Part shown: positions 40,093 to 50,347 of the stretch, piece after piece
Numbering within the stretch: the first letter of the stretch is position 1
How the letters are laid out: each line of letters opens with the position of its first letter
Assembly: GCA_963771465.1 (NCBI GenBank)
Contig: CAVYTU010000012.1
Location: 192,001 to 256,000 of the forward strand
Reading direction: 5' to 3'
DNA length: 64,000 nt
Origin: an uncultured delta proteobacterium
Lineage (GTDB): Bacteria > Desulfobacterota > Binatia > UBA9968
Position numbers and translations under genes: made by a program
Notes under the pieces: model-generated
The model's input: only the letters and a program-made list of their open reading frames with translations
Told to the model about the DNA's origin: nothing
Database searches by the model: none

Positions 40093-40119
40093 TCCCGGAT
40101 TCCCAGTTAAAATTGAAGC

Positions 40120-40300
40120 GCCGAGTGAGACGCGATCCTTCCGTAGTGAAGACAATGGGCCTGTGCCTCTGAGCAGGCAACCGACATATTGCCCGCGAGC
40201 AATCCCCAGAGCCTTTGGAACTTCTTGCCAGACTAGGCAAATGACTTTGCAACGGCAGCGTTGGGTGTCTTCACTACTCCAGGATCGCCTCTCACTCGGC
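40120..40300 (-). ncRNA. Candidate structured ncRNA, copy 1 (rod with central bubble), 3' of mgtE
   Basis: About 30 bp closing stem with a GGA/GGA internal loop plus an inner arm; homologous to 48568-48759 (32-nt identical block); strand not certain. Confidence 0.55.
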
Positions 40301-40344
40301 CGCGCAATTACTCAAACTGTGAAATCTGGTCTAACCCGCGACCA

Positions 40345-41658
40345 TTACAACAACGTGCCGCGCAGAATCACCGCGGCGACGGTGAAATAGATCACCAGTC
40401 CGGTGACGTCCACCAGGGTGGCGACAAACGGCGCCGACGCGCTGGCGGGATCGAAGCCCAAGCAGCGCAGGATGAACGGCAGAACCGAGCCCATCAAACA
40501 TCCCCATAGAACCACGCCGACCAGACTCAACGCCACGGTCAGGGCGACTAAAAAATAGTGATCGCCGTAAGAATCGAACAAGAACTGCCAGAGCAGTATA
40601 CGAACCAGACCGATGGTGGCGAGTATCGCTCCGAGCGCTAGCCCCGTGGCGAATTCACGGCGCACCACCCGCCACCAGTCGCGAATACGCACCTCGCCCA
40701 GCGCCATGGCACGGATTACCAAAGTGGTCGCTTGGGAGCCGGAATTGCCGCCGCTGCTGATAATCAGCGGCACGAAGAGCGCAAGAATCACCGCGCGGGC
40801 GATCTCCGCTTCGAAATATCCCATGGCGGTGGCCGTCAACATCTCGCCGAGAAAGAGCGCGGCGAGCCAGCCGGCCCGCTTGCGGATCATGCGCAGGAGA
40901 GAAACCTGCAGGTACGGCGCGTCGAGAGACTCGGCGCCGCCGATCTTGTGAATATCTTCGGTGGCTTCTTCTTGGACGACATCGACGATATCGTCGACGC
41001 TGACAATGCCTTTGATGCGCCCCTGTGGATCGACGACGGGAATCATCAACAAGTGGTGGCGCATGAACAACTTGCTCAAAGCTTCCTGGTCCATATCTTC
41101 GGCCGCCGAAATCACCTCGGTGCGCATGACTTCGCGAATCAACTTGTCGGCCGGGGCAATGATCAAATCGCGAAAGGTGATGACGCCGAGCAATCGTTCT
41201 TCAGGGTCAACGACGTAGGCATAAAAGGTCGTTCTCTGCCGCGTTTGAGCGTCCCGGCGTAGATAACTGATCGCCTCGCCAACGGTCATGTCGGGGCGAA
41301 GCCGGGAGTAGCGGGTGTTCATCAAGCCGCCGGCGTCGTCTTCGGCATAATCGAGCAGCCCTTTGACTTCCCTCTGGGTGACTTCGTCCAATAATACTAG
41401 TACTTCAGCGCGCGCGTTTGCCGGCGCTTCTTGGATCAGATCCGCCGCGTCGTCGGGTGCCAGCAGCCGCATCCACAGTCGCCGCTCACCCGGCGGTAGT
41501 TCGAGCACCAGGCCGGCTCGATCATGAACATTCAATTGCAGAAAAAACGACTCGGCGTCGTTTCGTTGCAGGGACTCGAAGCCCTCGACTCGTTCCGTTT
41601 CTGAGAGGACCGGCCAGGCGTCGTATAATTCCGCCGCTGTAAAATTGTTCTGGGCCAT
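40345..41658 (-). CDS. mgtE: Magnesium transporter MgtE (paralog 1)
   Basis: N domain, CBS pair, KRAGWL, SSGGNSGSQ, DPA.ASAPFVATLVD. Confidence 0.95.
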   Translation of the reverse strand: MAQNNFTAAELYDAWPVLSETERVEGFESLQRNDAESFFLQLNVHDRAGLVLELPPGERRLWMRLLAPDDAADLIQEAPANARAEVLVLLDEVTQREVKGLLDYAEDDAGGLMNTRYSRLRPDMTVGEAISYLRRDAQTRQRTTFYAYVVDPEERLLGVITFRDLIIAPADKLIREVMRTEVISAAEDMDQEALSKLFMRHHLLMIPVVDPQGRIKGIVSVDDIVDVVQEEATEDIHKIGGAESLDAPYLQVSLLRMIRKRAGWLAALFLGEMLTATAMGYFEAEIARAVILALFVPLIISSGGNSGSQATTLVIRAMALGEVRIRDWWRVVRREFATGLALGAILATIGLVRILLWQFLFDSYGDHYFLVALTVALSLVGVVLWGCLMGSVLPFILRCLGFDPASASAPFVATLVDVTGLVIYFTVAAVILRGTLL

Positions 41659-41778
41659 GACACTCTGTCCTTTCACGATCGTGGCTTTCATTCCTAACAC
41701 AACGATGGGCTCGTGCAATTCAGCGCGATTCCCCTGTCCTCATCGGCGGTCAATTTGCTCATCGGCGCGAGCAATTTC

Positions 41779-41807
41779 TTGACTCCACCCAGGCTTTCCA
41801 TTAACGT
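41779..41807 (+). promoter_or_regulatory. Putative sigma70 promoter of the ABC operon
   Basis: TTGACT-17 bp-TAACGT. Confidence 0.35.
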
Positions 41808-41824
41808 CGGCGCGGAGTACAGCC

Positions 41825-42601
41825 GTGAAATCTTCTTGGAAAAACGCCGCTGAGCCCGTGCTCTTCTTTCTCGCCTTGTTAGTGCTGTGGGAAATTCTCG
41901 TTGAAGTGATCAAGGTGCCGGCGTTTATTTTGCCGCCGCCGCGCGATCTATGGACGGCATTTTTTAAGAAGCTGCCGATCCTCGGCAACCACGCTTTGAT
42001 CACCTTCATCGAAGCCTTTGGCGGTTTCGTCTTGTCGTTGGTCTTGGGTGTCGGCTTCGCCATCTCGGTCGTTTATTCGCGCCATCTTCAGAACACCGTC
42101 TATCCACTCATCGTAATTCTTTACGCCATGCCGAAAAGCGCCTTCGCGCCGCTCATGGTGATCTGGGTGGGTTACGGCCTGTTTTCCAAGATTGCCATCG
42201 CCTTTCTCGTGGCGTTTTTTCCGATCGTCGTCAACACGGTGGTTGGACTGAAGGAAGTCGAGCCTGAGCTGTTGGAGTTGGCGCGCATCAACCGCGGTTC
42301 GGCGTGGGATGTCTTCAAAAAAATTCGCTTACCCAATTCGCTGCCTTACATGTTTGCCGGTATCAAAGTGGCGATCGTGTTGTCCGTTACCGGCGCCATC
42401 GTCGCCGAGTTCGTCGCGGCCAACGAAGGGCTTGGCTACCTGGTCTTGCAAGCCAACTACAGTTTGGACACGGCCTTCGCGCTGGTGATCCTGCTGATTC
42501 TCGCGGTCTTGTCCTTGGCGCTGTTTTGGCTCGCCGAGATGTTACAGCGCAAATTGGCGCCGTGGAGCGCAGCGGTACGCGAGGTCGAAGGCTCGTTCTA
42601 A
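41825..42601 (+). CDS. ABC transporter permease (NitT/TauT)
   Basis: PKSAFAPL, LPNSLPY, AEFVAANEGLG. Confidence 0.9.
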   Translation: MKSSWKNAAEPVLFFLALLVLWEILVEVIKVPAFILPPPRDLWTAFFKKLPILGNHALITFIEAFGGFVLSLVLGVGFAISVVYSRHLQNTVYPLIVILYAMPKSAFAPLMVIWVGYGLFSKIAIAFLVAFFPIVVNTVVGLKEVEPELLELARINRGSAWDVFKKIRLPNSLPYMFAGIKVAIVLSVTGAIVAEFVAANEGLGYLVLQANYSLDTAFALVILLILAVLSLALFWLAEMLQRKLAPWSAAVREVEGSF

Positions 42602-42622
42602 TTTTTTTGCTGGGGAGGTTGC

Positions 42623-43627
42623 ATGATGTTTTCGAAAAGACCGATCATTCGAGTAATCGCGCTTGCTTTTGTGGTCGCAATTCTTGGCTCTCAAGCCGAG
42701 GCGGCCGAGCTCACGCCGGCGAACGTTCGCTTGGATTTCATTATCGGCGGTAAGCACGCCCCTTGGTACGTCGCGTTAGACAAGGGCTTTTACGCCAAGC
42801 GTGGCCTGGCCGTGACGATTCAATCGAGCACTGGCTCGGCGGATACCGTGCGCACGATTGGCTCGGGCGGCGCCGACTTCGGCTTCGCCGATATCGCAAC
42901 CATGATGGTCGCCAAATCCCGCGGCGCGCCGGTGCAGGCGGCGGCGCAGTTCGGTTACGTCGGCGCGACGATTATGTGGCGCGATGAGGGGATCATCAAA
43001 GGGATCAAAGATCTCGAAGGCAAATCTTTGGCGATCAGTCCAGGACAGGCGCAATGGTTCTTGATGCCGGCCTACGCTCGGGTCAACAAGATCGACTTCA
43101 AAGCGATCAAGATTCAAGAAACCGCGCCGCCGATCCAGCCAGCTGCGCTGGCGACGAAGAAAGCCGATTTTATCATCATGTTCCGCGCCTCGAACGATGA
43201 AGTCGCCGAGATGGCGGCTTCCAAGGTCGGAGTTAAGCTTAAACGGGTGTTCATGAAGGACACCGGATTGGATATCTACGGTACCAGTCTGATCGTCAAG
43301 GATGACGATATCAAGAAACGGCCGGAGTTCGCCCGGGCCTACGTCGAGGCGACGTTGGAAGGGTTGCGCTACGCGCGCGACAATCAGGAAGAGGCGCTGA
43401 AGATTTTGCTCAAGCATAAACCCGAGCTCGATTCGGTGCTGACGACCGTGCAATTAAAAAATGCCCTGACCGAAGTATTCTTGCCGCTGGAATCGGTCAA
43501 CGTCGGCTTGGGTTTCATGAAGCCGGAGATCATGGAAAAAACCGTCAAGGTGGTCAACGAGTACTTCGACGTCGGCCGCAAGGTGACGGCCAAAGAGGTT
43601 TATACTAACCAGTTCATCAAGCGCTAA
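42623..43627 (+). CDS. ABC substrate-binding protein (NMT1/THI5-like)
   Basis: Signal peptide; HAPWYVALDKGFY, DLEGK. Confidence 0.87.
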   Translation: MMFSKRPIIRVIALAFVVAILGSQAEAAELTPANVRLDFIIGGKHAPWYVALDKGFYAKRGLAVTIQSSTGSADTVRTIGSGGADFGFADIATMMVAKSRGAPVQAAAQFGYVGATIMWRDEGIIKGIKDLEGKSLAISPGQAQWFLMPAYARVNKIDFKAIKIQETAPPIQPAALATKKADFIIMFRASNDEVAEMAASKVGVKLKRVFMKDTGLDIYGTSLIVKDDDIKKRPEFARAYVEATLEGLRYARDNQEEALKILLKHKPELDSVLTTVQLKNALTEVFLPLESVNVGLGFMKPEIMEKTVKVVNEYFDVGRKVTAKEVYTNQFIKR

Positions 43628-43647
43628 ATTTTCATAGTCAATTTACC

Positions 43648-44439
43648 GTGCCGCCGCTGATCGCCATCGAGGAAGTCTCGCGAGTTTTTACCAGCGGCGC
43701 CCGCACTGTCCTCGCGCTGGATAATGTATCGTTCGAGATTCAGGCCGGCAATTTCGTTTCCATCGTCGGCCCGAGCGGCTGCGGCAAGAGCACTTTGCTC
43801 AAGATTATTTCCGGCTTGATGCCCGCCTCCTCCGGTAAGGTCACGGTTAATAGTCAACTTGTCCATGGTCCACTGGAAAATGTCGGTATGGTCTTCCAGG
43901 CGCCGGTGCTGTTGAAGTGGCGCTCGGTGCTGGGCAATATTCTATTGCCGGTAGAATTCGCCAAACGCGATGTCGCCGATTACACCGCCCCAGCCCGCGC
44001 GTTGATAAATCTGGTCGGATTGGATGGCTTCGAAGAAATGTATCCGCACGAGCTCTCCGGCGGCATGCAACAACGCGCCTCGCTGTGCCGCGCCCTGGTG
44101 ACCGATCCGCAACTGTTGCTGATGGACGAGCCGTTCGGCGCGCTCGACGCCATGACGCGGGACGATCTCGATATCGAGTTATTACGCATCTGGGAAGAGC
44201 GCAAGAAAACCGTGTTGTTCGTCACCCATAGTATTCAGGAAGCGGTGTTTCTCTCCGACTTGGTCTTCGTTATGTCGGCTCGACCGGGAAGACTGATAGA
44301 AACGATTGCGGTTGACTTGCCACGGCCGAGAACGATGGAAATGATGAGCACGGCGAAATTCGGCGAATACACCCTCAAAATTCGCGCGCTTCTGGCCGCC
44401 AGCGGAGCTTTGGGTTCGAAAGCCGGCTCCACCATGTGA
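43648..44439 (+). CDS. ABC transporter ATP-binding protein (NitT/TauT)
   Basis: GPSGCGKST, LSGGMQQR, MDEPFGALD. Confidence 0.92.
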   Translation: MPPLIAIEEVSRVFTSGARTVLALDNVSFEIQAGNFVSIVGPSGCGKSTLLKIISGLMPASSGKVTVNSQLVHGPLENVGMVFQAPVLLKWRSVLGNILLPVEFAKRDVADYTAPARALINLVGLDGFEEMYPHELSGGMQQRASLCRALVTDPQLLLMDEPFGALDAMTRDDLDIELLRIWEERKKTVLFVTHSIQEAVFLSDLVFVMSARPGRLIETIAVDLPRPRTMEMMSTAKFGEYTLKIRALLAASGALGSKAGSTM

Positions 44440-44517
44440 ATTTTTCTCGCCGGTGGGCTATCATAGCAATTAAGTCGGCAGCAGCCCGCCGAAGCCGTTT
44501 CCTAGAAAAGATAAATA

Positions 44518-45555
44518 ATGTCTCAAGGACTCACCTATGCCAAGGCCGGCGTTAGTATCGTAGCAGGCGATGAACTTGTGCGACGCATCGGGCCCATCAC
44601 CCGACGGACCAAAGTTCCCGGCGTGCTCTCCGGGGTCGGCGGTTTTAGCGCGCTGTTCGATCTCAAACCGCGCGGCTACCGCCAGCCGATTCTCGTCGCT
44701 TCGACGGACGGTGTTGGCACTAAACTGAAGATCGCGTTCATGACCGGTGTGCATGACACCATTGGGATCGACTTGGTCGCCATGGGCGTCAACGATATTC
44801 TCACCCAAGGAGCGGCGCCGCTGTTTTTCTTGGACTACTTCGTCTGCGGCAAGCTCGACGTGAAAATTACCACAGCGGTGGTGCGTGGCATCGCTGCCGG
44901 CTGTTTACAAGCGGGTTGCGCCTTGATCGGCGGCGAGACCGCCGAACATCCCGGCGACTTTCCCAAAGGCGAGTACGACCTCGCCGGCTTCGTCGTCGGC
45001 GTGTTGGAAAAAAAGCAAATCGTCGATCCAAATTCCATCGTCCCCGGAGATATCTTGGTCGGCATTCCCTCCAGCGGGCTGCATAGCAACGGCTATTCGC
45101 TGGCGCGCAAAGTTTTGCTCGAACGCGGCCGCTTGAAATTATCCCGGCGAATTCCTGAGCTGGGCCGAAAGCTTGGCGCGGAGTTGCTCGAACCGACGCG
45201 CATCTACGCCACCATCACGCGCCGATTGTTTGCCGACTTCGACATCAAAGGCGCGGCGCATATCACCGGCGGAGGCATTACCGGCAATCTGCCGCGCGTT
45301 TTGCCGCCGGGACGGCGCGCGGTGATCGAGCGCGGCAGCTGGCCGGCGCCGCCGGTGTTCGCTCTAATTAAAAAAATTGGTGCGGTCGAGCAGGCCGAGA
45401 TGGACTCGACGTTCAATAACGGTCTCGGCATGATTCTCGTTGTCAGCACAAAGCAAGCCGACGGCGTCGTGGGCACGCTTAAATCGATGGGCGAGCAAGC
45501 TTTCATTATCGGCGAGATCCGCAAAGGAGCGCGCGGCGCCACGCTGCGCGGATAG
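44518..45555 (+). CDS. purM: Phosphoribosylformylglycinamidine cyclo-ligase
   Basis: TDGVGTK, GGETAE, SSGLHSNGYSL, AHITGGG. Confidence 0.97.
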   Translation: MSQGLTYAKAGVSIVAGDELVRRIGPITRRTKVPGVLSGVGGFSALFDLKPRGYRQPILVASTDGVGTKLKIAFMTGVHDTIGIDLVAMGVNDILTQGAAPLFFLDYFVCGKLDVKITTAVVRGIAAGCLQAGCALIGGETAEHPGDFPKGEYDLAGFVVGVLEKKQIVDPNSIVPGDILVGIPSSGLHSNGYSLARKVLLERGRLKLSRRIPELGRKLGAELLEPTRIYATITRRLFADFDIKGAAHITGGGITGNLPRVLPPGRRAVIERGSWPAPPVFALIKKIGAVEQAEMDSTFNNGLGMILVVSTKQADGVVGTLKSMGEQAFIIGEIRKGARGATLRG

Positions 45556-45560
45556 GAAAT

Positions 45561-46220
45561 ATGGCGCGGCAGGTTTCGATCGGGGTACTGATTTCCGGCG
45601 GCGGAACTAATTTGCAATCGATCATCGACGCCATCGAGGCGAAACAGCTCGACGCCAAAATACAATTTGTCCTGAGCAACAAAGCGGACGCTTACGGCCT
45701 GGTGCGCGCCAAGAACCACGGGATTCCGACCGAAGTGCTCGATCACAGATCGTTCCCGAGCCGCGAAGCCTACGACCAAGCCGTCGTCGATTTGCTGCAT
45801 GGGCGCGGCGTTGAACTGGTCGTGCTCGCCGGTTTCATGCGACTGCTCTCGCCGGTGTTTATCAAAGCTTATTCCAATCGGATCATGAACATTCATCCGG
45901 CCTTGCTGCCGGCGTTTGCCGGTTTACAGGTGCAGAAGAAAGCGCTCGAGCACGGCGTGCGCTTCGCCGGCTGCACGGTGCATTTCGTCAATGAAGAGTG
46001 CGACGAGGGGCCGATCATCATTCAAGCCGTAGTGCCGGTTTTTACCGACGATACCGAGGCAGCGCTGATGGCGCGCATTCTCAAACAAGAGCACAAAATT
46101 TATCCCCGGGCAATTCAGCTCTACGCCGAAGGCCGTTTGCGCGTCGTCGGACGGCGCGTTTTTGTCGATGGTGCTGGCAAAGATGAAGCTCAGGTTCTCA
46201 TCGAACCGCCGTTGGCTTGA
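45561..46220 (+). CDS. purN: Phosphoribosylglycinamide formyltransferase
   Basis: ISGGGTNL, LAGFMR, NIHPALLP, GCTVHFV, DEGPII. Confidence 0.97.
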   Translation: MARQVSIGVLISGGGTNLQSIIDAIEAKQLDAKIQFVLSNKADAYGLVRAKNHGIPTEVLDHRSFPSREAYDQAVVDLLHGRGVELVVLAGFMRLLSPVFIKAYSNRIMNIHPALLPAFAGLQVQKKALEHGVRFAGCTVHFVNEECDEGPIIIQAVVPVFTDDTEAALMARILKQEHKIYPRAIQLYAEGRLRVVGRRVFVDGAGKDEAQVLIEPPLA

Positions 46221-47200
46221 TGAAGATCTCCAAAGCGACCTTGATATTTTTCGCTAAGATCCTAGTTAGCGCCGGGTTGTTGGCGTTTTTTCTTTCGCGC
46301 ATCGACGTGAGCCAGTTTTGGGGCACACTGCTCGCCGCCGATGTCCGCTACGTCGGCGTCGCGCTGGCCGCCTATCTCGTTTGTCAATTTATCGGTGCGC
46401 TGCGCTGGACCGTGTTGTCGCGGCCGTTGGGTTTTACCATGGGACTCAGCGGCATGACCGCCTATTACTTTATCGGTATGTTTTTTAATTTGTTCGCGCC
46501 AGGAACGGTCGGCGGCGACCTCAGCAAGATTTATTATCTCACTCTCGACGGTCAAAAAGCAGGGGAAAGGAGCTGGTCGGCGGCGACCTTGCGCGCGACG
46601 GTTTCGGTGGTGGCTGACCGCGCGGTCGGCATGTTCGTGTTGGTTTGGTTGGGTGCGATCGGGTTGTTCTGGTTTTCCCAGTATGCGGTTCCCGCTCCTG
46701 TTCGCTCTGTGACTTTCGCTCTAGCAGCGGCTTTGTTAGTTGGCGGCATCTGCTTGCCCTTGGCAACCCGGTTTCTGCCCCATGACAGCCATCCGCTGAT
46801 CGCCAAATTGCGCGTGGCACTGCAGAGCTACGGATCAGGATTCGGCGCGATTCCGGTGGCGCTGCTGTTGTCTGTCGTCGTCCACCTCATTCAAGCCTGG
46901 ATGCATGTCGTGATGGGCAAGGCGCTCAATCTTGAAATCCCGTTTACCTTCTGCCTGATTCTCTACCCGTTGGTTGGAACGTTTGCGGCGATTCCAATCA
47001 GTTTCAACGGCATCGGTTTGCGCGAATCGGGTTATCTTTTTTTGCTCAGCGCGATCGGTGTCAGTTCAGAAAAGGCGGTCGCCTTCGGTTTACTGCTGTT
47101 TATGATCGTGGCACTTGATAGTTTGTTGGGCGGCCTACTTTTCTTGTTGAAGCGCAAAGAGAGTGCGGCGATTGTTAACGCCGGCGCTCAATTCAAATAG
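46220..47200 (+). CDS. Lysylphosphatidylglycerol-synthase TM domain (flippase-like, YbhN) protein
   Basis: RW, FFNLFAPGTVGGD, DR, PISFNGIGLRE. Confidence 0.83.
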   Translation: MKISKATLIFFAKILVSAGLLAFFLSRIDVSQFWGTLLAADVRYVGVALAAYLVCQFIGALRWTVLSRPLGFTMGLSGMTAYYFIGMFFNLFAPGTVGGDLSKIYYLTLDGQKAGERSWSAATLRATVSVVADRAVGMFVLVWLGAIGLFWFSQYAVPAPVRSVTFALAAALLVGGICLPLATRFLPHDSHPLIAKLRVALQSYGSGFGAIPVALLLSVVVHLIQAWMHVVMGKALNLEIPFTFCLILYPLVGTFAAIPISFNGIGLRESGYLFLLSAIGVSSEKAVAFGLLLFMIVALDSLLGGLLFLLKRKESAAIVNAGAQFK

Positions 47201-48540
47201 TGACGAAAGATCGTTGCCAGCCCAAGAAATGAGAGAAAGCCAAAGGCATCGGTCAGCCCGGTGACGATGATGCCGGACCCTAACGCGGGGTCGAGCTTCA
47301 AGGATTTTAACAGCAACGGAATCACCGCGCCGGCGACTCCCGCCATTAGTCCAAGATTGAGAATCATCGCGCCCGCGAGCACCAGTCCGAAATAAGGATT
47401 GCCCTTCCAGATGAACGCGGCCACGGCGATTACCGCCCCGGCGGCGAGGGCGATGCAAATACTGACCGACACTTGTTTGACCACCGCTTTCCATGCCGAG
47501 GAGAATTCCAACTCGCCCAACGCGATTGCGCGTATCATGACCGTCGCCGTCTGCGTCGCGCCATTACCGCCGACGCCGGCAACCACGGGCATGAAGGTGA
47601 CCAAGGCGATGATGTCGTGCAAGGTGTTTTCGAAGATACCGACAACGGAGGCGGCCAAGGTCGCGGTCAGGAGATTCAACATCGTCCAGGGAAGCCGCAT
47701 TCTGACCGAGCGCGAAACCGGTGTGAACACGCGGTCTTCCTCGGTCAAGCCGACCATCTTATACATGTCCTCGGTGCTTTCCTGGTTGATGATATCGATC
47801 ACATCGTCGACCGTGATGATCCCTTCCAAGCGGCCGCCTTCGTCGACGATCGGCAGAGCGAGCAGCTCGTACTTGCTGACCAAACGCGCCGCTTCTTCTT
47901 GATCCATGAAGACGTTGGCTTTGACCGGGTCGGCGATCATCATTTCACTCAGCGTGCGCGCGGGCGGCGCGATGACGAGATTGCGAATCGGCACGACGCC
48001 GACCAATTTACCCGCGTCGTCGACGACGTAGAGATAGAAGAAGGCCTCTAACTCGCCGCGCTCGCGAATCTTGTCGATGGCGCCTTGGGCGGTGGTGTCG
48101 GGCGGCAGCGCCATGAACTCCGTCGTCATCAAGCGGCCGACGGTGCCTTCGGGATAGTTGATAATTTCCCGCACTGCGGCGCGCCGCTCGGGATCTAGCA
48201 AGCCCATGACGTGCTCGCGCCGCTCATCCGGCAGGCTATCGATAAAAGTCACGGCATCGTCGGGATCGGCGCGGACGATCAAGCGGCCGACTTTTTCGTC
48301 GTCGATCAAGGCGAGAATATCGGGCAACAACTCAGGCGGCAGCTCTTTGAGCGTCTTGGCGGCGCGCCGCGACGAGAAGAGAATGTCGAAGAGCTGGCGA
48401 ATTTCCGCTGCTTCCAGCCCTTTGAACAGCAAGGCGATATCGGCGGGATGGCTCTTGCCGATGAACCGCAGCACACGATCCGGCGTTGCCGTGCGCAACA
48501 TCTCGCGCACTGTATCGTAGTCGATGGGAGCCGGTTTCAT
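47188..48540 (-). CDS. mgtE: Magnesium transporter MgtE (paralog 2)
   Basis: HPADIA, CBS pair, RLPW, GGNGATQ, DPALGSG...TD. Confidence 0.95.
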   Translation of the reverse strand: MKPAPIDYDTVREMLRTATPDRVLRFIGKSHPADIALLFKGLEAAEIRQLFDILFSSRRAAKTLKELPPELLPDILALIDDEKVGRLIVRADPDDAVTFIDSLPDERREHVMGLLDPERRAAVREIINYPEGTVGRLMTTEFMALPPDTTAQGAIDKIRERGELEAFFYLYVVDDAGKLVGVVPIRNLVIAPPARTLSEMMIADPVKANVFMDQEEAARLVSKYELLALPIVDEGGRLEGIITVDDVIDIINQESTEDMYKMVGLTEEDRVFTPVSRSVRMRLPWTMLNLLTATLAASVVGIFENTLHDIIALVTFMPVVAGVGGNGATQTATVMIRAIALGELEFSSAWKAVVKQVSVSICIALAAGAVIAVAAFIWKGNPYFGLVLAGAMILNLGLMAGVAGAVIPLLLKSLKLDPALGSGIIVTGLTDAFGFLSFLGLATIFRHYLN

Positions 48541-48567
48541 GTCAATCCCGAAGGCCTCAGTTGAAAA

Positions 48568-48759
48568 CGAAGCAGCGAGTGAGGCGTGATCCTTCCATAG
48601 TGAAGACAATGGCCCTCTGCCCCTGAGTGGTCAATGATCGTCGGTGTCGGGGGAAATTTCCGTGCGTCCATCGGAATGGCTTGCCAAGCATACAAAATGA
48701 CTTTGTAATCGTAGCGTTGGGTGTCTTCACTACTCCAGGATCGCGCCTCGCTCACTTCG
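48568..48759 (-). ncRNA. Candidate structured ncRNA or leader, copy 2, in the 5' UTR of mgtE
   Basis: Same closing stem and inner arm as copy 1; lies between a putative promoter and the mgtE ATG. Confidence 0.55.
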
Positions 48760-48788
48760 GATTTTGGCTTAACCTCTCCGCCGATGGG

Positions 48789-48825
48789 GTCGTTACTTCA
48801 TAACGACAGGCTGTGAGTTTTGCAA
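48789..48825 (-). promoter_or_regulatory. Putative promoter for the element plus mgtE, with overlapping palindrome
   Basis: Minus strand TTGCAA-17-TATGAA; GTCGTTA-CTTCA-TAACGAC inverted repeat (48789-48807). Confidence 0.4.
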
Positions 48826-48910
48826 ATGTAGAGTCGATTTTGGCCGTGTTTCACTGCATGGGAAAAATTTGCTAGTGTACGAGACGGGGTGGCGACAGCG
48901 ACTCGGTCCC

Positions 48911-50347
48911 ATGAAACACTACCAACGCATCTGCCAGGTCATTCGGGATAAGCCCAGAGGATTTTTTCTTTTGCCGATCTCGGTGCTCGCGTTGTGCGCC
49001 GAACTGTACGCTGCAAGTTTGGCGGCATTGGACGGCACTCGGCCGCCGTCGTTTGCGGCGATTGCCAAAAAAACCATGCCCGTGGTGGTCAATATTTCGA
49101 CGACATCGCAGCGTTCGCCGCGCTCCGGGTCCAACGACCCCATTGAAGATTTTTTTAACCGTTTCTTCGGTGAAGCGACGCCCAAAGAAAACAATCAGCG
49201 CAGTTTGGGTTCGGGCATCGTGATCAGCAAGGACGGCGAGATACTGACCAATTACCACGTCGTGCGCAACGCCGACTCGATCAAAGTAAAACTGGCCAAT
49301 CAAACCGAATATGAAGCGCGGCTGATCGGCAAGGACGACCGCACCGACTTGGCGTTGATCAAGCTTCGCCGATCGGGCGGCAATCTGCCTTTCGCACGAT
49401 TGGGATCATCGAGTCAGATCGACGTTGGCGATTGGGTGATGGCGATCGGCAATCCGTTCGGTCTGGAGCATACGGTCACCGCCGGCATCGTCAGCGCCAA
49501 AGGCCGGGTCATCGGTGCCGGTCCGTATGACAGCTTCATACAGACCGACGCTTCGATCAATCCGGGCAATAGCGGTGGACCGCTGATCAACGCCGATGGT
49601 GAAGTGATCGGTGTTAACAGCGCGATTTTCAGCCAGTCCGGTGGCAACGTCGGCATCGGTTTCGCGATCCCTATCGATTTGGTGAAAAAAGTCACCGACC
49701 AATTGCGCAAGCATGGCAAAGTCGTACGCGGCTGGCTCGGTGTGCGGGTCCAGGACGTCATGCCCACTCTTGCGACGTCGGTCGGCCTGACGCGAAACCC
49801 GAACGAGACTGCGCTGGTGACGGAAGTCGCCGACAAAAGTCCGGCGGCGGAAGCGAGCGTCAGGACCGGCGACATCATCGTCGAATTTAACGGCAAGCCG
49901 GTGCCGAAGAGCCATGACTTTCCCAGCGTGATCGCCGACACCCCACCCGGCCAGAAGGTGACACTGAAAATCTTCCGCGACAAGAAAGAACAAGTGGTCA
50001 GCGTGCGTATTGGCGAGCTGGCCGAGGATAGTGAAGCCAATCAGCAGGCGGAGGCGCGCGACCCGGAGCTCGGATTACGCGTTCAACGGATCACGCCGGA
50101 AACGGCGCGCCGCTTGGGGCTCGCTTCGGCTAAGGGCGTATTGGTCGTCGAAGTTCAGCCGGGCAGCCCGGCCGATCAAGTCGGCATCGAGCCGGCGGAC
50201 GTGATTCGCGAAGTCAACCAGCGCGCGGTCAGCAACGTGAAAGAGTTCGAACGCGCGACGCGCCAGGGGCGGCGCGGCGATCGGATCTTGCTCCTTGTGC
50301 AACGCGGCGATAACGCGGTATTCTTCGCCGTGAAGCGTAAGAGTTAG
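48911..50347 (+). CDS. DegQ/HtrA (Do family) serine endoprotease
   Basis: LGSG, TNYHVV, TDLA, INPGNSGG, two PDZ domains. Confidence 0.95.
   Translation: MKHYQRICQVIRDKPRGFFLLPISVLALCAELYAASLAALDGTRPPSFAAIAKKTMPVVVNISTTSQRSPRSGSNDPIEDFFNRFFGEATPKENNQRSLGSGIVISKDGEILTNYHVVRNADSIKVKLANQTEYEARLIGKDDRTDLALIKLRRSGGNLPFARLGSSSQIDVGDWVMAIGNPFGLEHTVTAGIVSAKGRVIGAGPYDSFIQTDASINPGNSGGPLINADGEVIGVNSAIFSQSGGNVGIGFAIPIDLVKKVTDQLRKHGKVVRGWLGVRVQDVMPTLATSVGLTRNPNETALVTEVADKSPAAEASVRTGDIIVEFNGKPVPKSHDFPSVIADTPPGQKVTLKIFRDKKEQVVSVRIGELAEDSEANQQAEARDPELGLRVQRITPETARRLGLASAKGVLVVEVQPGSPADQVGIEPADVIREVNQRAVSNVKEFERATRQGRRGDRILLLVQRGDNAVFFAVKRKS

What the first reader, a model, noticed from the sequence alone, without database searches (positions are those of the whole stretch)
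40120..48759. Duplicated ~180-nt rod-shaped non-coding element attached to both mgtE Mg2+-channel genes
Seen: 40120-40300 and 48568-48759 are diverged homologs in the same orientation. They share a 32-nt identical block (AGCGTTGGGTGTCTTCACTACTCCAGGATCGC at 40257-40288 and 48713-48744) and a conserved GATCCTTCCrTAGTGAAGACAATGG. On the minus strand both fold by hand into a long closing stem (GATCCT-gga-GTAGTGAAGACA / TGTCTTCACTAy-gga-AGGATC, a symmetric GGA/GGA loop), a central bubble and an inner arm. Inner pairing is kept despite sequence change (TTCCA/TGGGG vs TTCCG/CGGAA; GGCAA/TTGCT vs GGCAA/TTTCC). Copy 2 lies in the 5' UTR of mgtE-2; copy 1 lies just 3' of mgtE-1. Known: mgtE genes are often controlled by RNA leaders (M-box/ykoK), and 6S RNA is a ~180-nt rod with a central bubble, but I cannot match either consensus. 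Inference: an undescribed Mg2+-linked structured RNA (leader or sRNA), a divergent 6S-like pair, or a MITE. Strand evidence is mixed.
Basis: partly seen in the sequence, partly recalled or inferred. Interest (0 to 1): 0.85.

Follow-up and report, generated by a model that had tools for sequence, protein, structure and literature searches.

The report
Small mobile DNA repeat beside mgtE
The two look-alike hairpin elements next to the magnesium-channel genes are copies of a small non-coding jumping element found about a hundred times in this genome, so the link to magnesium transport is a coincidence and the finding is ordinary.

Summary
Two homologous, rod-folding, non-coding elements sit beside the only two mgtE genes of the genome.

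- The unit is longer than reported, about 237 bp: copy 1 is 40094-40330 and copy 2 is 48547-48767.
- It is a dispersed repeat with 94-97 places in the 6.9-Mb genome, in two subfamilies, A and B.
- It has terminal inverted repeats. Perfect 5-bp target-site duplications flank 5 of 15 full copies, against 10 of 210 control pairings.
- It shows no orientation bias and its neighbours are unrelated genes.
- Its first 18-19 nt match the ends of roughly 1.55-kb IS1380-family insertion sequences in congeneric genomes. Those IS make the same 5-bp duplications at TTSAA-like sites.
- No such transposase was found in this assembly.
- The orthologous mgtE sites in relatives lack the element: 0 of 28 for mgtE-2 and 0 of 4 syntenic sites for mgtE-1.
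- One soil metagenome holds both a filled and an empty allele.
- Rfam gives nothing.

One residual oddity is that the interior rod keeps its pairing through compensatory changes between the subfamilies, and keeps a conserved TCC/TCC internal loop.

Verdict: a new member of a known kind (bacterial MITE), of low interest.

The parts
40094..40330 (+). MITE copy 1 (subfamily A), 237 bp. It fills almost the whole spacer between the stop codon of a FemAB-like gene (ends 40092) and the stop codon of mgtE-1 (40345).
   Evidence: nhmmer family model positions 2-251 at 215.7 bits; ends read; fold. The flanking 5-mers GTAAT and CTAAC match at 3 of 5, so the duplication is decayed.
40094..40113 (+). Left terminal inverted repeat of copy 1 (CCCGGATTCCCAGTTAAAAT), the presumed transposase-binding end.
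   Evidence: It matches the ends of IS1380-family IS in congeners, CCCGGATTCCGCAGTAGAA.
40311..40330 (+). Right terminal inverted repeat of copy 1.
   Evidence: It is the reverse complement of the left end.
40118..40154 (+). 5' arm of the interior rod, containing the conserved TCC internal-loop strand at 40140-40142.
   Evidence: MFE structure; pair counts.
40266..40303 (+). 3' arm of the interior rod, containing the conserved TCC internal-loop strand at 40278-40280.
   Evidence: MFE structure; pair counts.
48547..48767 (+). MITE copy 2 (subfamily A), 221 bp, with an internal deletion near its 3' end. It starts 6 nt from the mgtE-2 start codon (CAT at 48538-48540 on +) and lies in the divergent spacer towards an HtrA/DegP-like gene.
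   Evidence: nhmmer positions 3-234 at 181.2 bits; alignments; empty orthologous sites; filled and empty alleles in metagenome contigs.
40345..41718 (-). mgtE-1. This is a neighbour, not part of the element.
   Evidence: Pfam MgtE, CBS and MgtE_N.
47188..48540 (-). mgtE-2. This is a neighbour, not part of the element.
   Evidence: Pfam MgtE, CBS and MgtE_N.

Best explanation
Both elements are copies of a miniature inverted-repeat transposable element (MITE). It is a roughly 240-bp, non-coding, non-autonomous transposon whose 18-20-nt terminal inverted repeats are those of IS1380-family insertion sequences.

Shown here:
- It is a dispersed family with two subfamilies.
- It has terminal inverted repeats and 5-bp target-site duplications.
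- Its ends are shared with transposase-carrying IS in congeneric genomes, and those IS make the same duplications.
- Filled and empty sites exist at both mgtE loci.

Inferred:
- Copies were mobilised in trans by that DDE transposase, which cuts AT-rich TTSAA-like sites with a 5-bp stagger. These sites lie mostly in short spacers just past gene ends.
- In this genome the copies are old (about 74% pairwise identity) and now stranded, because no cognate transposase is in the assembly.
- Their position beside both mgtE genes is coincidence. Copy 1 landed in a TTCAA-rich spacer between two convergent genes. Copy 2 landed 6 nt upstream of the mgtE-2 start codon, so mgtE-2 transcripts must now read through it.
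- The interior folds into a long hairpin, as is usual for bacterial MITEs.
For: 1. Copy number. BLAST of copy 1 against its own genome gave 58 matches on more than 10 contigs. Iterated nhmmer gave 94 non-overlapping places. Subfamily models gave 97 places: A 56, of which 26 are at least 150 nt, and B 41, of which 35 are at least 150 nt.

2. Terminal inverted repeats. Positions 19-55 of the copy 1 query match the reverse complement of positions 167-201, and the repeat extends to the CCCGGATTCC ends.

3. Target-site duplications. 5 of 15 full-length A copies have perfect direct 5-mers (TTCAA, TTCAT, CTGAA, ATAAT, ATCAA). The same test on non-self pairings gave 10 of 210, binomial p = 4.9e-4.

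4. Autonomous partner.
- The NCBIfam IS1380 transposase model hits 12 of 30 congeners, with 6 of the 31 genomes scored (own included) over the curated cut-off.
- In loci L083-L087 the 1546-bp IS ends in CCCGGATTCCGCAGTAGAA on both sides. The MITE-A end is CCCGGATTCCGCAGTCGAA.
- These IS carry 5-bp duplications: TTAAG/TTAAG in L086, TTGAA/TTGAA in L085, and 4 of 5 in L084.
- The encoded protein is Pfam DDE_Tnp_1_4.
- Subfamily B ends (CCCGGATTATTC.., flanked by CTAG) recur on a 1.66-kb IS1380-family IS in L081.
- IS1247 of the IS1380 family is tabulated with 5-bp direct repeats (PMC3281130, Table 2, passage seen).

5. Insertion polymorphism.
- 0 of 28 orthologous mgtE-2 loci in other genomes of the genus carry the element, and empty sites are visible.
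- 0 of 8 mgtE-1 downstream loci carry it. In the 4 syntenic loci the spacer is unrelated sequence, and in 3 of them it holds TTCAA repeats.
- In metagenome run X3, one contig spans the filled site (48508-49099) and another joins 48540 to 48777 with 9 other letters between them.

6. No functional theme.
- 78 of 94 places are intergenic by crude ORF calls.
- Orientation relative to tandem neighbours is 25 same and 23 opposite, p = 0.89.
- Of 28 flanking ORF segments of 14 other A copies, 20 have Pfam hits, and 0 of the 28 matches a Mg2+ or other metal-ion transporter family.

7. The family is confined to one genus among the genomes searched: 12 of 24 congeners and 0 of 16 genomes from two other families of the order.
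Against: - No IS1380-family transposase was found in this genome (0 matches), so mobilisation cannot be shown here. The partner is inferred from congeners.
- Ten of 15 full A copies lack a perfect duplication, including both window copies (3 of 5 for copy 1, about 1 of 5 for copy 2).
- Under a uniform model, the chance that both of two given genes abut a copy is about 6e-4. The coincidence is therefore not trivial, although it was noticed post hoc.
- MITE presence and IS presence do not track each other among the 24 congeners searched for both: 5 have both, 7 have the MITE only, 4 have the IS only.
- The interior rod is unrelated to the IS interior. It keeps its pairing through compensatory changes between the subfamilies and keeps a conserved TCC/TCC loop. 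Binding of a transposase to the termini does not explain this.
- The counts for congeners include G005, an unpublished genome. Without it they are 11 of 23, 11 of 29 and 0 of 27.
Confidence: 0.93

Rival explanations
1. The element is a MITE, but its interior rod is itself a functional module. It would act at the RNA level (3'-end stabiliser, roadblock or terminator, or a protein-binding hairpin that presents GGA/GGA on one strand) or as single-stranded DNA during transposition. In this reading many copies matter to the host or to the element beyond their termini.
For: - On 42 copies, 82.7% of cells form a standard pair, against 75.7% in shuffles and 36-45% when the partners are slid.
- 21 of 33 pairs have changes on both sides, for example AU 18 / GC 18 and CG 25 / UA 14.
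- The TCC/TCC loop is kept in 31 of 38 A+B copies on each arm, although A and B are only 49% identical in the core.
- Copies are enriched between convergent genes (25 observed, 13.7 expected) and depleted between divergent genes (5 observed, 13.7 expected), chi-square p = 5.5e-4.
- A contig from an RNA library covers 48669-48982, the right half of copy 2.
Against: - Within subfamilies the pairing excess is small: A 79.4 against 77.5, B 84.3 against 82.8. Most compensation could therefore stem from one split between two master copies, or from arm-to-arm conversion.
- There is no orientation bias.
- No sigma-70-like promoter was found, and only one weak terminator-like site, no more than in shuffles.
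- Enrichment at gene ends is also what purifying selection against promoter disruption would give.
- The RNA contig has no strand and may be DNA carry-over.
Confidence: 0.15
2. The element is a Mg2+-responsive leader or riboswitch-like RNA, or an sRNA, dedicated to mgtE regulation.
For: - Both of the only two mgtE genes abut a copy.
- Copy 2 occupies the 5' leader of mgtE-2.
- The fold is strong.
- The uniform-model chance of both genes abutting a copy is about 6e-4.
Against: - There are 94-97 copies next to unrelated genes.
- Copy 1 is downstream of its mgtE gene, not upstream.
- The element is absent from 28 of 28 orthologous mgtE-2 loci and from 4 of 4 syntenic mgtE-1 loci.
- There is no M-box hit or any other Rfam hit.
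- It carries target-site duplications and IS-type ends.
Confidence: 0.02
3. The two elements are a pair of divergent 6S-like RNAs.
For: A rod of about 180-240 nt with internal loops.
Against: - No match to 6S (RF00013) even at E up to 10.
- The family has about a hundred copies in both orientations.
- The element is missing from half of the congeners searched. A 6S RNA gene is expected to be conserved and single- or few-copy; this expectation is recalled knowledge.
Confidence: 0.01
4. The element is a REP/BIME-type repeat handled by a RAYT (HUH) transposase, or a single-strand IS200/IS605-type derivative.
For: It is a hairpin-forming intergenic repeat that sits close to gene ends.
Against: - The direct 5-bp duplications vary in sequence. 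By recalled knowledge, HUH elements make none.
- The unit is about 240 bp rather than about 35 bp.
- The ends match IS1380-family DDE elements.
- RAYT genes were not searched for.
Confidence: 0.02

Closest known systems
IS1380-family insertion sequences (ISEcp1, IS1247, ISPme1)
   Same: The terminal inverted repeat starts with CC and matches the IS1380-family IS of congeners at 18 of 19 positions. Both make 5-bp duplications at AT-rich sites. IS1247 is tabulated with 5-bp direct repeats (PMC3281130, passage seen). Transposases of this family are reported to accept imperfect IR-like ends (PMC9330008, passages seen).
   Different: The element has no transposase gene and is about 240 bp rather than 1.5-1.7 kb. 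Its interior is unrelated to the IS interior. No partner was found in this genome.
Bacterial MITEs such as Correia/NEMIS, ERIC, RUP and BOX (names and properties recalled, not tested here)
   Same: Short, non-coding and intergenic, with many copies, terminal inverted repeats, target-site duplications and a long hairpin when transcribed.
   Different: The host lineage is different: MAGs labelled Syntrophobacter, Deltaproteobacteria or Thermodesulfobacteriota. So is the parent IS family. No sequence comparison with those families was made.
TIMEs, Tn3-derived inverted-repeat miniature elements (PMC4133298; listing and start of abstract seen)
   Same: Non-autonomous miniature elements mobilised in trans. 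The 5-bp duplication of Tn3-family elements is recalled, not checked.
   Different: The ends here match IS1380-family IS, not Tn3-type repeats. The features of the Tn3 repeat are recalled, not tested.
M-box (ykoK) Mg2+ riboswitch, RF00380
   Same: A structured element that can precede mgtE.
   Different: No covariance-model match. The element is multi-copy and mobile, and is not conserved at mgtE.
6S RNA, RF00013
   Same: A rod-like fold of similar length.
   Different: No covariance-model match, about a hundred copies, and a patchy presence in the genus.

Membership tests
MITE | Short (under about 600 bp) with no transposase or other conserved ORF | tested here: met
   The unit is 221-245 bp. 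No ORF of 80 aa or more is confined to either window copy.
MITE | Terminal inverted repeats | tested here: met
   Self-antisense matches; aligned left and right ends.
MITE | Target-site duplications of fixed length | tested here: met
   5 of 15 copies have perfect 5-mers against 10 of 210 in controls, p = 4.9e-4. The two window copies themselves have decayed duplications.
MITE | Many dispersed copies | tested here: met
   94 places or 97 places, on most of the 19 contigs.
MITE | Ends shared with an autonomous transposase-encoding element | tested here: met
   Met in congeneric genomes: A-type ends in L083-L087 and B-type ends in L081. Not met in the window's own genome.
MITE | Presence or absence polymorphism at orthologous sites | tested here: met
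   Filled and empty alleles occur together in run X3.
MITE | Demonstrated mobilisation in trans | not testable with these tools
   This needs a transposition assay.
IS1380-family derivative | Inverted repeats beginning with CC and 4-5-bp duplications (family features partly recalled; the 5-bp repeat for IS1247 was seen) | tested here: met
   Subfamily A has CCCGG.. ends with 5-bp duplications. Subfamily B is flanked by CTAG.
IS1380-family derivative | Cognate transposase in the same genome | tested here: not met
   NF033539 gave 0 matches in G000, which is 99.36% complete in 19 contigs. IS copies can be lost at contig breaks.
M-box riboswitch (RF00380) | Match to the covariance model | tested here: not met
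M-box riboswitch (RF00380) | Conserved position in the 5' leader of Mg2+ transport genes | tested here: not met
   0 of 28 orthologous mgtE-2 loci carry it. Copy 1 lies 3' of its gene.
6S RNA (RF00013) | Match to the covariance model | tested here: not met
6S RNA (RF00013) | Conserved gene of low copy number | tested here: not met
   94-97 places. Found in only 12 of 24 congeners.

The most novel reading that the evidence does not exclude
The interior rod could be a selected structural module that two MITE subfamilies with different IS1380-type ends have both kept. Its stems are compensated between the subfamilies, and its symmetric TCC/TCC internal loop (GGA/GGA on the other strand) is nearly invariant. 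It might be a protein-binding RNA or ssDNA hairpin that shapes the 3' ends or stability of neighbouring transcripts, or that is needed for mobilisation. About a hundred insertions would then wire a common post-transcriptional feature into unrelated genes, mgtE-2 among them.
Probability: 0.15. Interest if true: 0.45.

Novelty: new member of a known kind. Interest (0 to 1): 0.15.

Why it matters
The main value is as a correction. A striking "paired RNA at both mgtE genes" turns out to be a repeat family, and it should be masked before anyone looks for structured RNAs or regulatory leaders in this lineage.

There is some secondary value:
- It documents an IS1380-linked MITE family, with two subfamilies each matched to its own IS, in uncultured Syntrophobacter-like Thermodesulfobacteriota.
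- One copy is inserted 6 nt from a start codon and is nonetheless retained in several soil and groundwater populations.
- An IS110-type element sits at one fixed site inside the MITE.

Two full-text searches turned up no description of this family. In the listing, no title or abstract start among the 15 papers shown (of 21 holding both terms) describes an IS1380-derived MITE; only passages of two of them were read, and supplements were closed.

Tried and rejected
- RNAalifold on the 42-copy alignment returned no consensus structure. I therefore projected the copy 1 MFE rod onto the alignment and counted the pairs.
- An automatic regex placement of the element ends misplaced several of them and gave only 2 of 16 perfect duplications. 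I replaced it with model-anchored ends allowing 1 nt of slack, plus a non-self control.
- A search of this genome for pairs of facing ends 0.1-6 kb apart found no autonomous element. The only long pair (C15, 2941 bp) encloses cysD/cysN-like genes, not a transposase.
- A megablast of the genome against itself showed no obvious IS with these ends (only the first 120 of 161 rows were read).
- Promoter and terminator scans found nothing above the shuffles.
- I considered whether the folded hairpin brings the displaced GGAGAGG Shine-Dalgarno-like sequence back near the mgtE-2 AUG. In the copy 2 fold the rod does not close at the element ends, because its 3' end carries a deletion, so I dropped the idea.
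- The RNA-library contigs of X15 gave no listed piece over copy 1, and no strand or transcript ends for copy 2. They are not usable as evidence of expression or of silence.
- RAYT/HUH genes, Tn3 transposases and other transposase families were not searched for.
- Supplementary files of papers were closed and were not consulted. ISfinder-type tables in them might already list related elements.

Full report
**What is in the sequence.** The 32-nt block is identical at 40257-40288 and 48713-48744, and the GATCCTTCCrTAGTGAAGACAATGG motif occurs in both copies. The two regions align in the same orientation at 82% column identity. Copy 1 folds into a long rod on either strand, with z = -8.4 and -8.1 and none of 200 shuffles folding as well. 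Copy 2 folds less strongly, with z = -4.2. The flanking genes are true MgtE channels with MgtE_N, CBS and MgtE domains. They are 32.5% identical to each other and are the only two in the genome. No Rfam family reaches its gathering score anywhere in the 64-kb window. With E up to 10 around each copy, only chance hits to eukaryotic lncRNA and snoRNA models appear. There is no M-box hit and no 6S hit.

**It is a repeat family, not a pair.** Copy 1 finds 58 BLAST matches in its own 6.9-Mb genome, on more than ten contigs. An iterated nhmmer profile finds 94 non-overlapping places. Separate subfamily profiles find 97 places: A 56, of which 26 are at least 150 nt, and B 41, of which 35 are at least 150 nt. 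In window coordinates, copy 1 is 40094-40330. It starts one base after the FemAB-like gene's stop codon and ends 14 nt before the mgtE-1 stop codon. Copy 2 is 48547-48767, starts 6 nt from the mgtE-2 start codon, and has an internal deletion near its 3' end. Copies are old: the median pairwise identity is 74% within A (15 rows), 76% within B (23 rows) and 49% between A and B.

**Transposon hallmarks.** Five of 15 full-length A copies are flanked by perfect direct 5-mers of differing sequence: TTCAA, TTCAT, CTGAA, ATAAT and ATCAA. The same test on left and right flanks taken from different copies gives 10 of 210, so p = 4.9e-4. The other ten, including both window copies, have decayed flanks. 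Subfamily B copies are flanked almost always by CTAG or a YTAR variant on both sides. Because CTAG is a palindrome, this cannot be told apart from a longer inverted repeat.

**The autonomous partner.** The NCBIfam IS1380 transposase model has no match in this genome. It does match in 12 of 30 other genomes of the genus, with 6 of the 31 genomes scored (own included) above the curated cut-off. In five such loci (L083-L087) the transposase gene lies in a 1546-bp unit whose two ends read CCCGGATTCCGCAGTAGAA or a close variant, which is 18 of 19 identical to the MITE-A ends. These units are flanked by 5-bp duplications: TTAAG/TTAAG in L086, TTGAA/TTGAA in L085, 4 of 5 in L084 and 3 of 5 in L083. 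L087 is cut by a contig end. The protein is Pfam DDE_Tnp_1_4 and DDE_Tnp_1. A different IS1380-family IS in L081, about 1.66 kb and the best transposase match at 384 bits, ends in CCCTAATTATTCATGG / CCATGAATAATCCGGG flanked by CTAG. Those are the subfamily B ends. Only the terminal 20-30 nt are shared, and the MITE interior does not match the IS interior. A published table lists IS1247 (IS1380 family) with 5-bp direct repeats (PMC3281130, passage seen). A review describes IS1380-family transposases as using imperfect IR-like ends (PMC9330008, passages seen).

**Is there an mgtE link?** No.
- Fourteen other A copies were examined through 28 flanking ORF segments. Twenty have Pfam hits, among them an amino-acid permease, a sigma-54 activator, RNase E/G, a nitroreductase, Hsp70, an aminotransferase, TPP enzymes, LptF/G, UDG and CoaBC. 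None of the 28 matches a Mg2+ or other metal-ion transporter family.
- By crude ORF calling, 78 of 94 places are intergenic. In tandem gene contexts the element points with the genes 25 times and against them 23 times, p = 0.89.
- Of 28 orthologous mgtE-2 loci in other genomes of the genus (79-94% protein identity, with 1.5 kb of flank), none contains the element at E up to 1 with filters off. An alignment shows the short native leader without the insert in three relatives. The closest relative has a different insert of about 130 nt at the same place.
- Downstream of mgtE-1, none of 8 loci contains the element. In the 4 loci that keep the FemAB-like neighbour, the spacer is unrelated sequence. 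In 3 of them it is about 110 nt long and holds several TTCAA motifs, which is the preferred target of subfamily A.
- The two copies stand in different relations to their genes, one 3' and the other 5'.

Under a uniform model, the chance that two given genes both abut a copy is about 6e-4. That is small, but the pairing was noticed after the fact and the evidence above outweighs it.

**Population evidence.** Contigs of three DNA metagenome runs from three other studies (X2, X3, X10) carry the mgtE-2/MITE junction with 0-1 mismatches, so the insertion is established in nature. In X3, a second contig joins 48540 to 48777 with nine other letters between them, which is an empty allele in a related strain. 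A contig from an RNA library (X15) covers 48669-48982, the right half of copy 2 and the conserved leader. It carries no strand information, and DNA carry-over cannot be excluded.

**Distribution.** By BLAST, the family occurs in 12 of 24 congeners and in 0 of 16 genomes from two other families of the order. An exact scan for a 23-nt degenerate core motif over about 186,000 species genomes found 38 stretches. All are in MAGs labelled Syntrophobacter sp., Deltaproteobacteria, delta proteobacterium or Thermodesulfobacteriota, except one in a bin labelled Streptomycetaceae. G005, an unpublished genome, is included in the genus tallies. Removing it changes them to 11 of 23, 11 of 29 and 0 of 27.

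**What remains unexplained.** The rod is more than a pair of transposase sites.
- On 42 copies, 82.7% of the cells in 33 rod pairs form a standard pair, against 75.7% in shuffles and 36-45% with the partners slid.
- 21 pairs show changes on both sides, mostly distinguishing A (GTAGTGAAGACA / TGTCTTCACTAC) from B (GGAACGAAGGCA / TGCCTTCGTTCC).
- A 3x3 TCC/TCC internal loop is kept in 31 of 38 A+B copies on each arm.
- Within each subfamily the excess pairing is slight: 79.4 against 77.5, and 84.3 against 82.8. Most compensation may therefore trace to one split between master copies or to arm-to-arm conversion.
- Copies are enriched between convergent genes (25 observed, 13.7 expected) and depleted between divergent genes (5 observed, 13.7 expected), p = 5.5e-4. 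This fits either selection against hitting promoters or a role at 3' ends.
- No promoter-like site was found, and only one weak terminator-like site, which is no more than in shuffles.

I put about 15% on the rod having a function of its own.

**Verdict.** The element is a MITE of the IS1380 family, in two subfamilies, stranded in this genome. It is a new member of a known kind and the mgtE association is coincidental. Interest is low.

Noticed in passing
G000:C10:78937-80246 (locus L015) and G000:C15:1048751-1049394: An IS110-family element of 1310 bp is present only twice in the genome. It has a Transposase_20 domain (PF02371), and its N-terminal part lies in another frame, so it may be frameshifted. 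One copy is full-length and one is rearranged or deleted. Both are inserted at exactly the same site inside subfamily-A MITE copies, CCTCTGA|..|TGAGCAGGC, with different outer flanks. Either the IS targets this MITE sequence or the MITE carried it as cargo.
   Followed up: partly
window 48789-48876: The native mgtE-2 leader, displaced by copy 2, is conserved in congeners. It has a perfect 7-bp hairpin, GTCGTTA-CTTCA-TAACGAC, at 48789-48807, and an inverted pair TTTGCAAAT / AAATTTGCTA about 45 nt apart. This is a better candidate for real mgtE-2 or htrA-like regulation than the MITE.
   Followed up: no
L044 (G009) about 130 nt upstream of its mgtE-2 start: The closest relative has a different hairpin-rich insert of about 130 nt at the same place where G000 has the MITE. 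The site just upstream of the mgtE-2 start may therefore be an insertion hot spot.
   Followed up: no
L073-L075 (relatives), spacer between the FemAB-like gene and mgtE-1: The empty orthologous spacer holds a run of GGTTCAAGGTTCAAAAGTTCAAAGGTTCAAGG-like repeats, that is, several copies of the TTCAA target preferred by subfamily A.
   Followed up: no
window about 43750-44160: Metagenome contig depth rises to hundreds or thousands here, with many loose ends at 43760, 44117 and 44150-44159. The likely cause is a highly conserved gene segment shared with many other organisms, such as an ABC-ATPase motif region. It is unrelated to the finding.
   Followed up: no
G000:C15:333541-336481: Two solo MITE-end fragments flank a cysD/cysN-cysC-like gene pair. 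They are probably two independent remnants rather than a composite transposon.
   Followed up: partly
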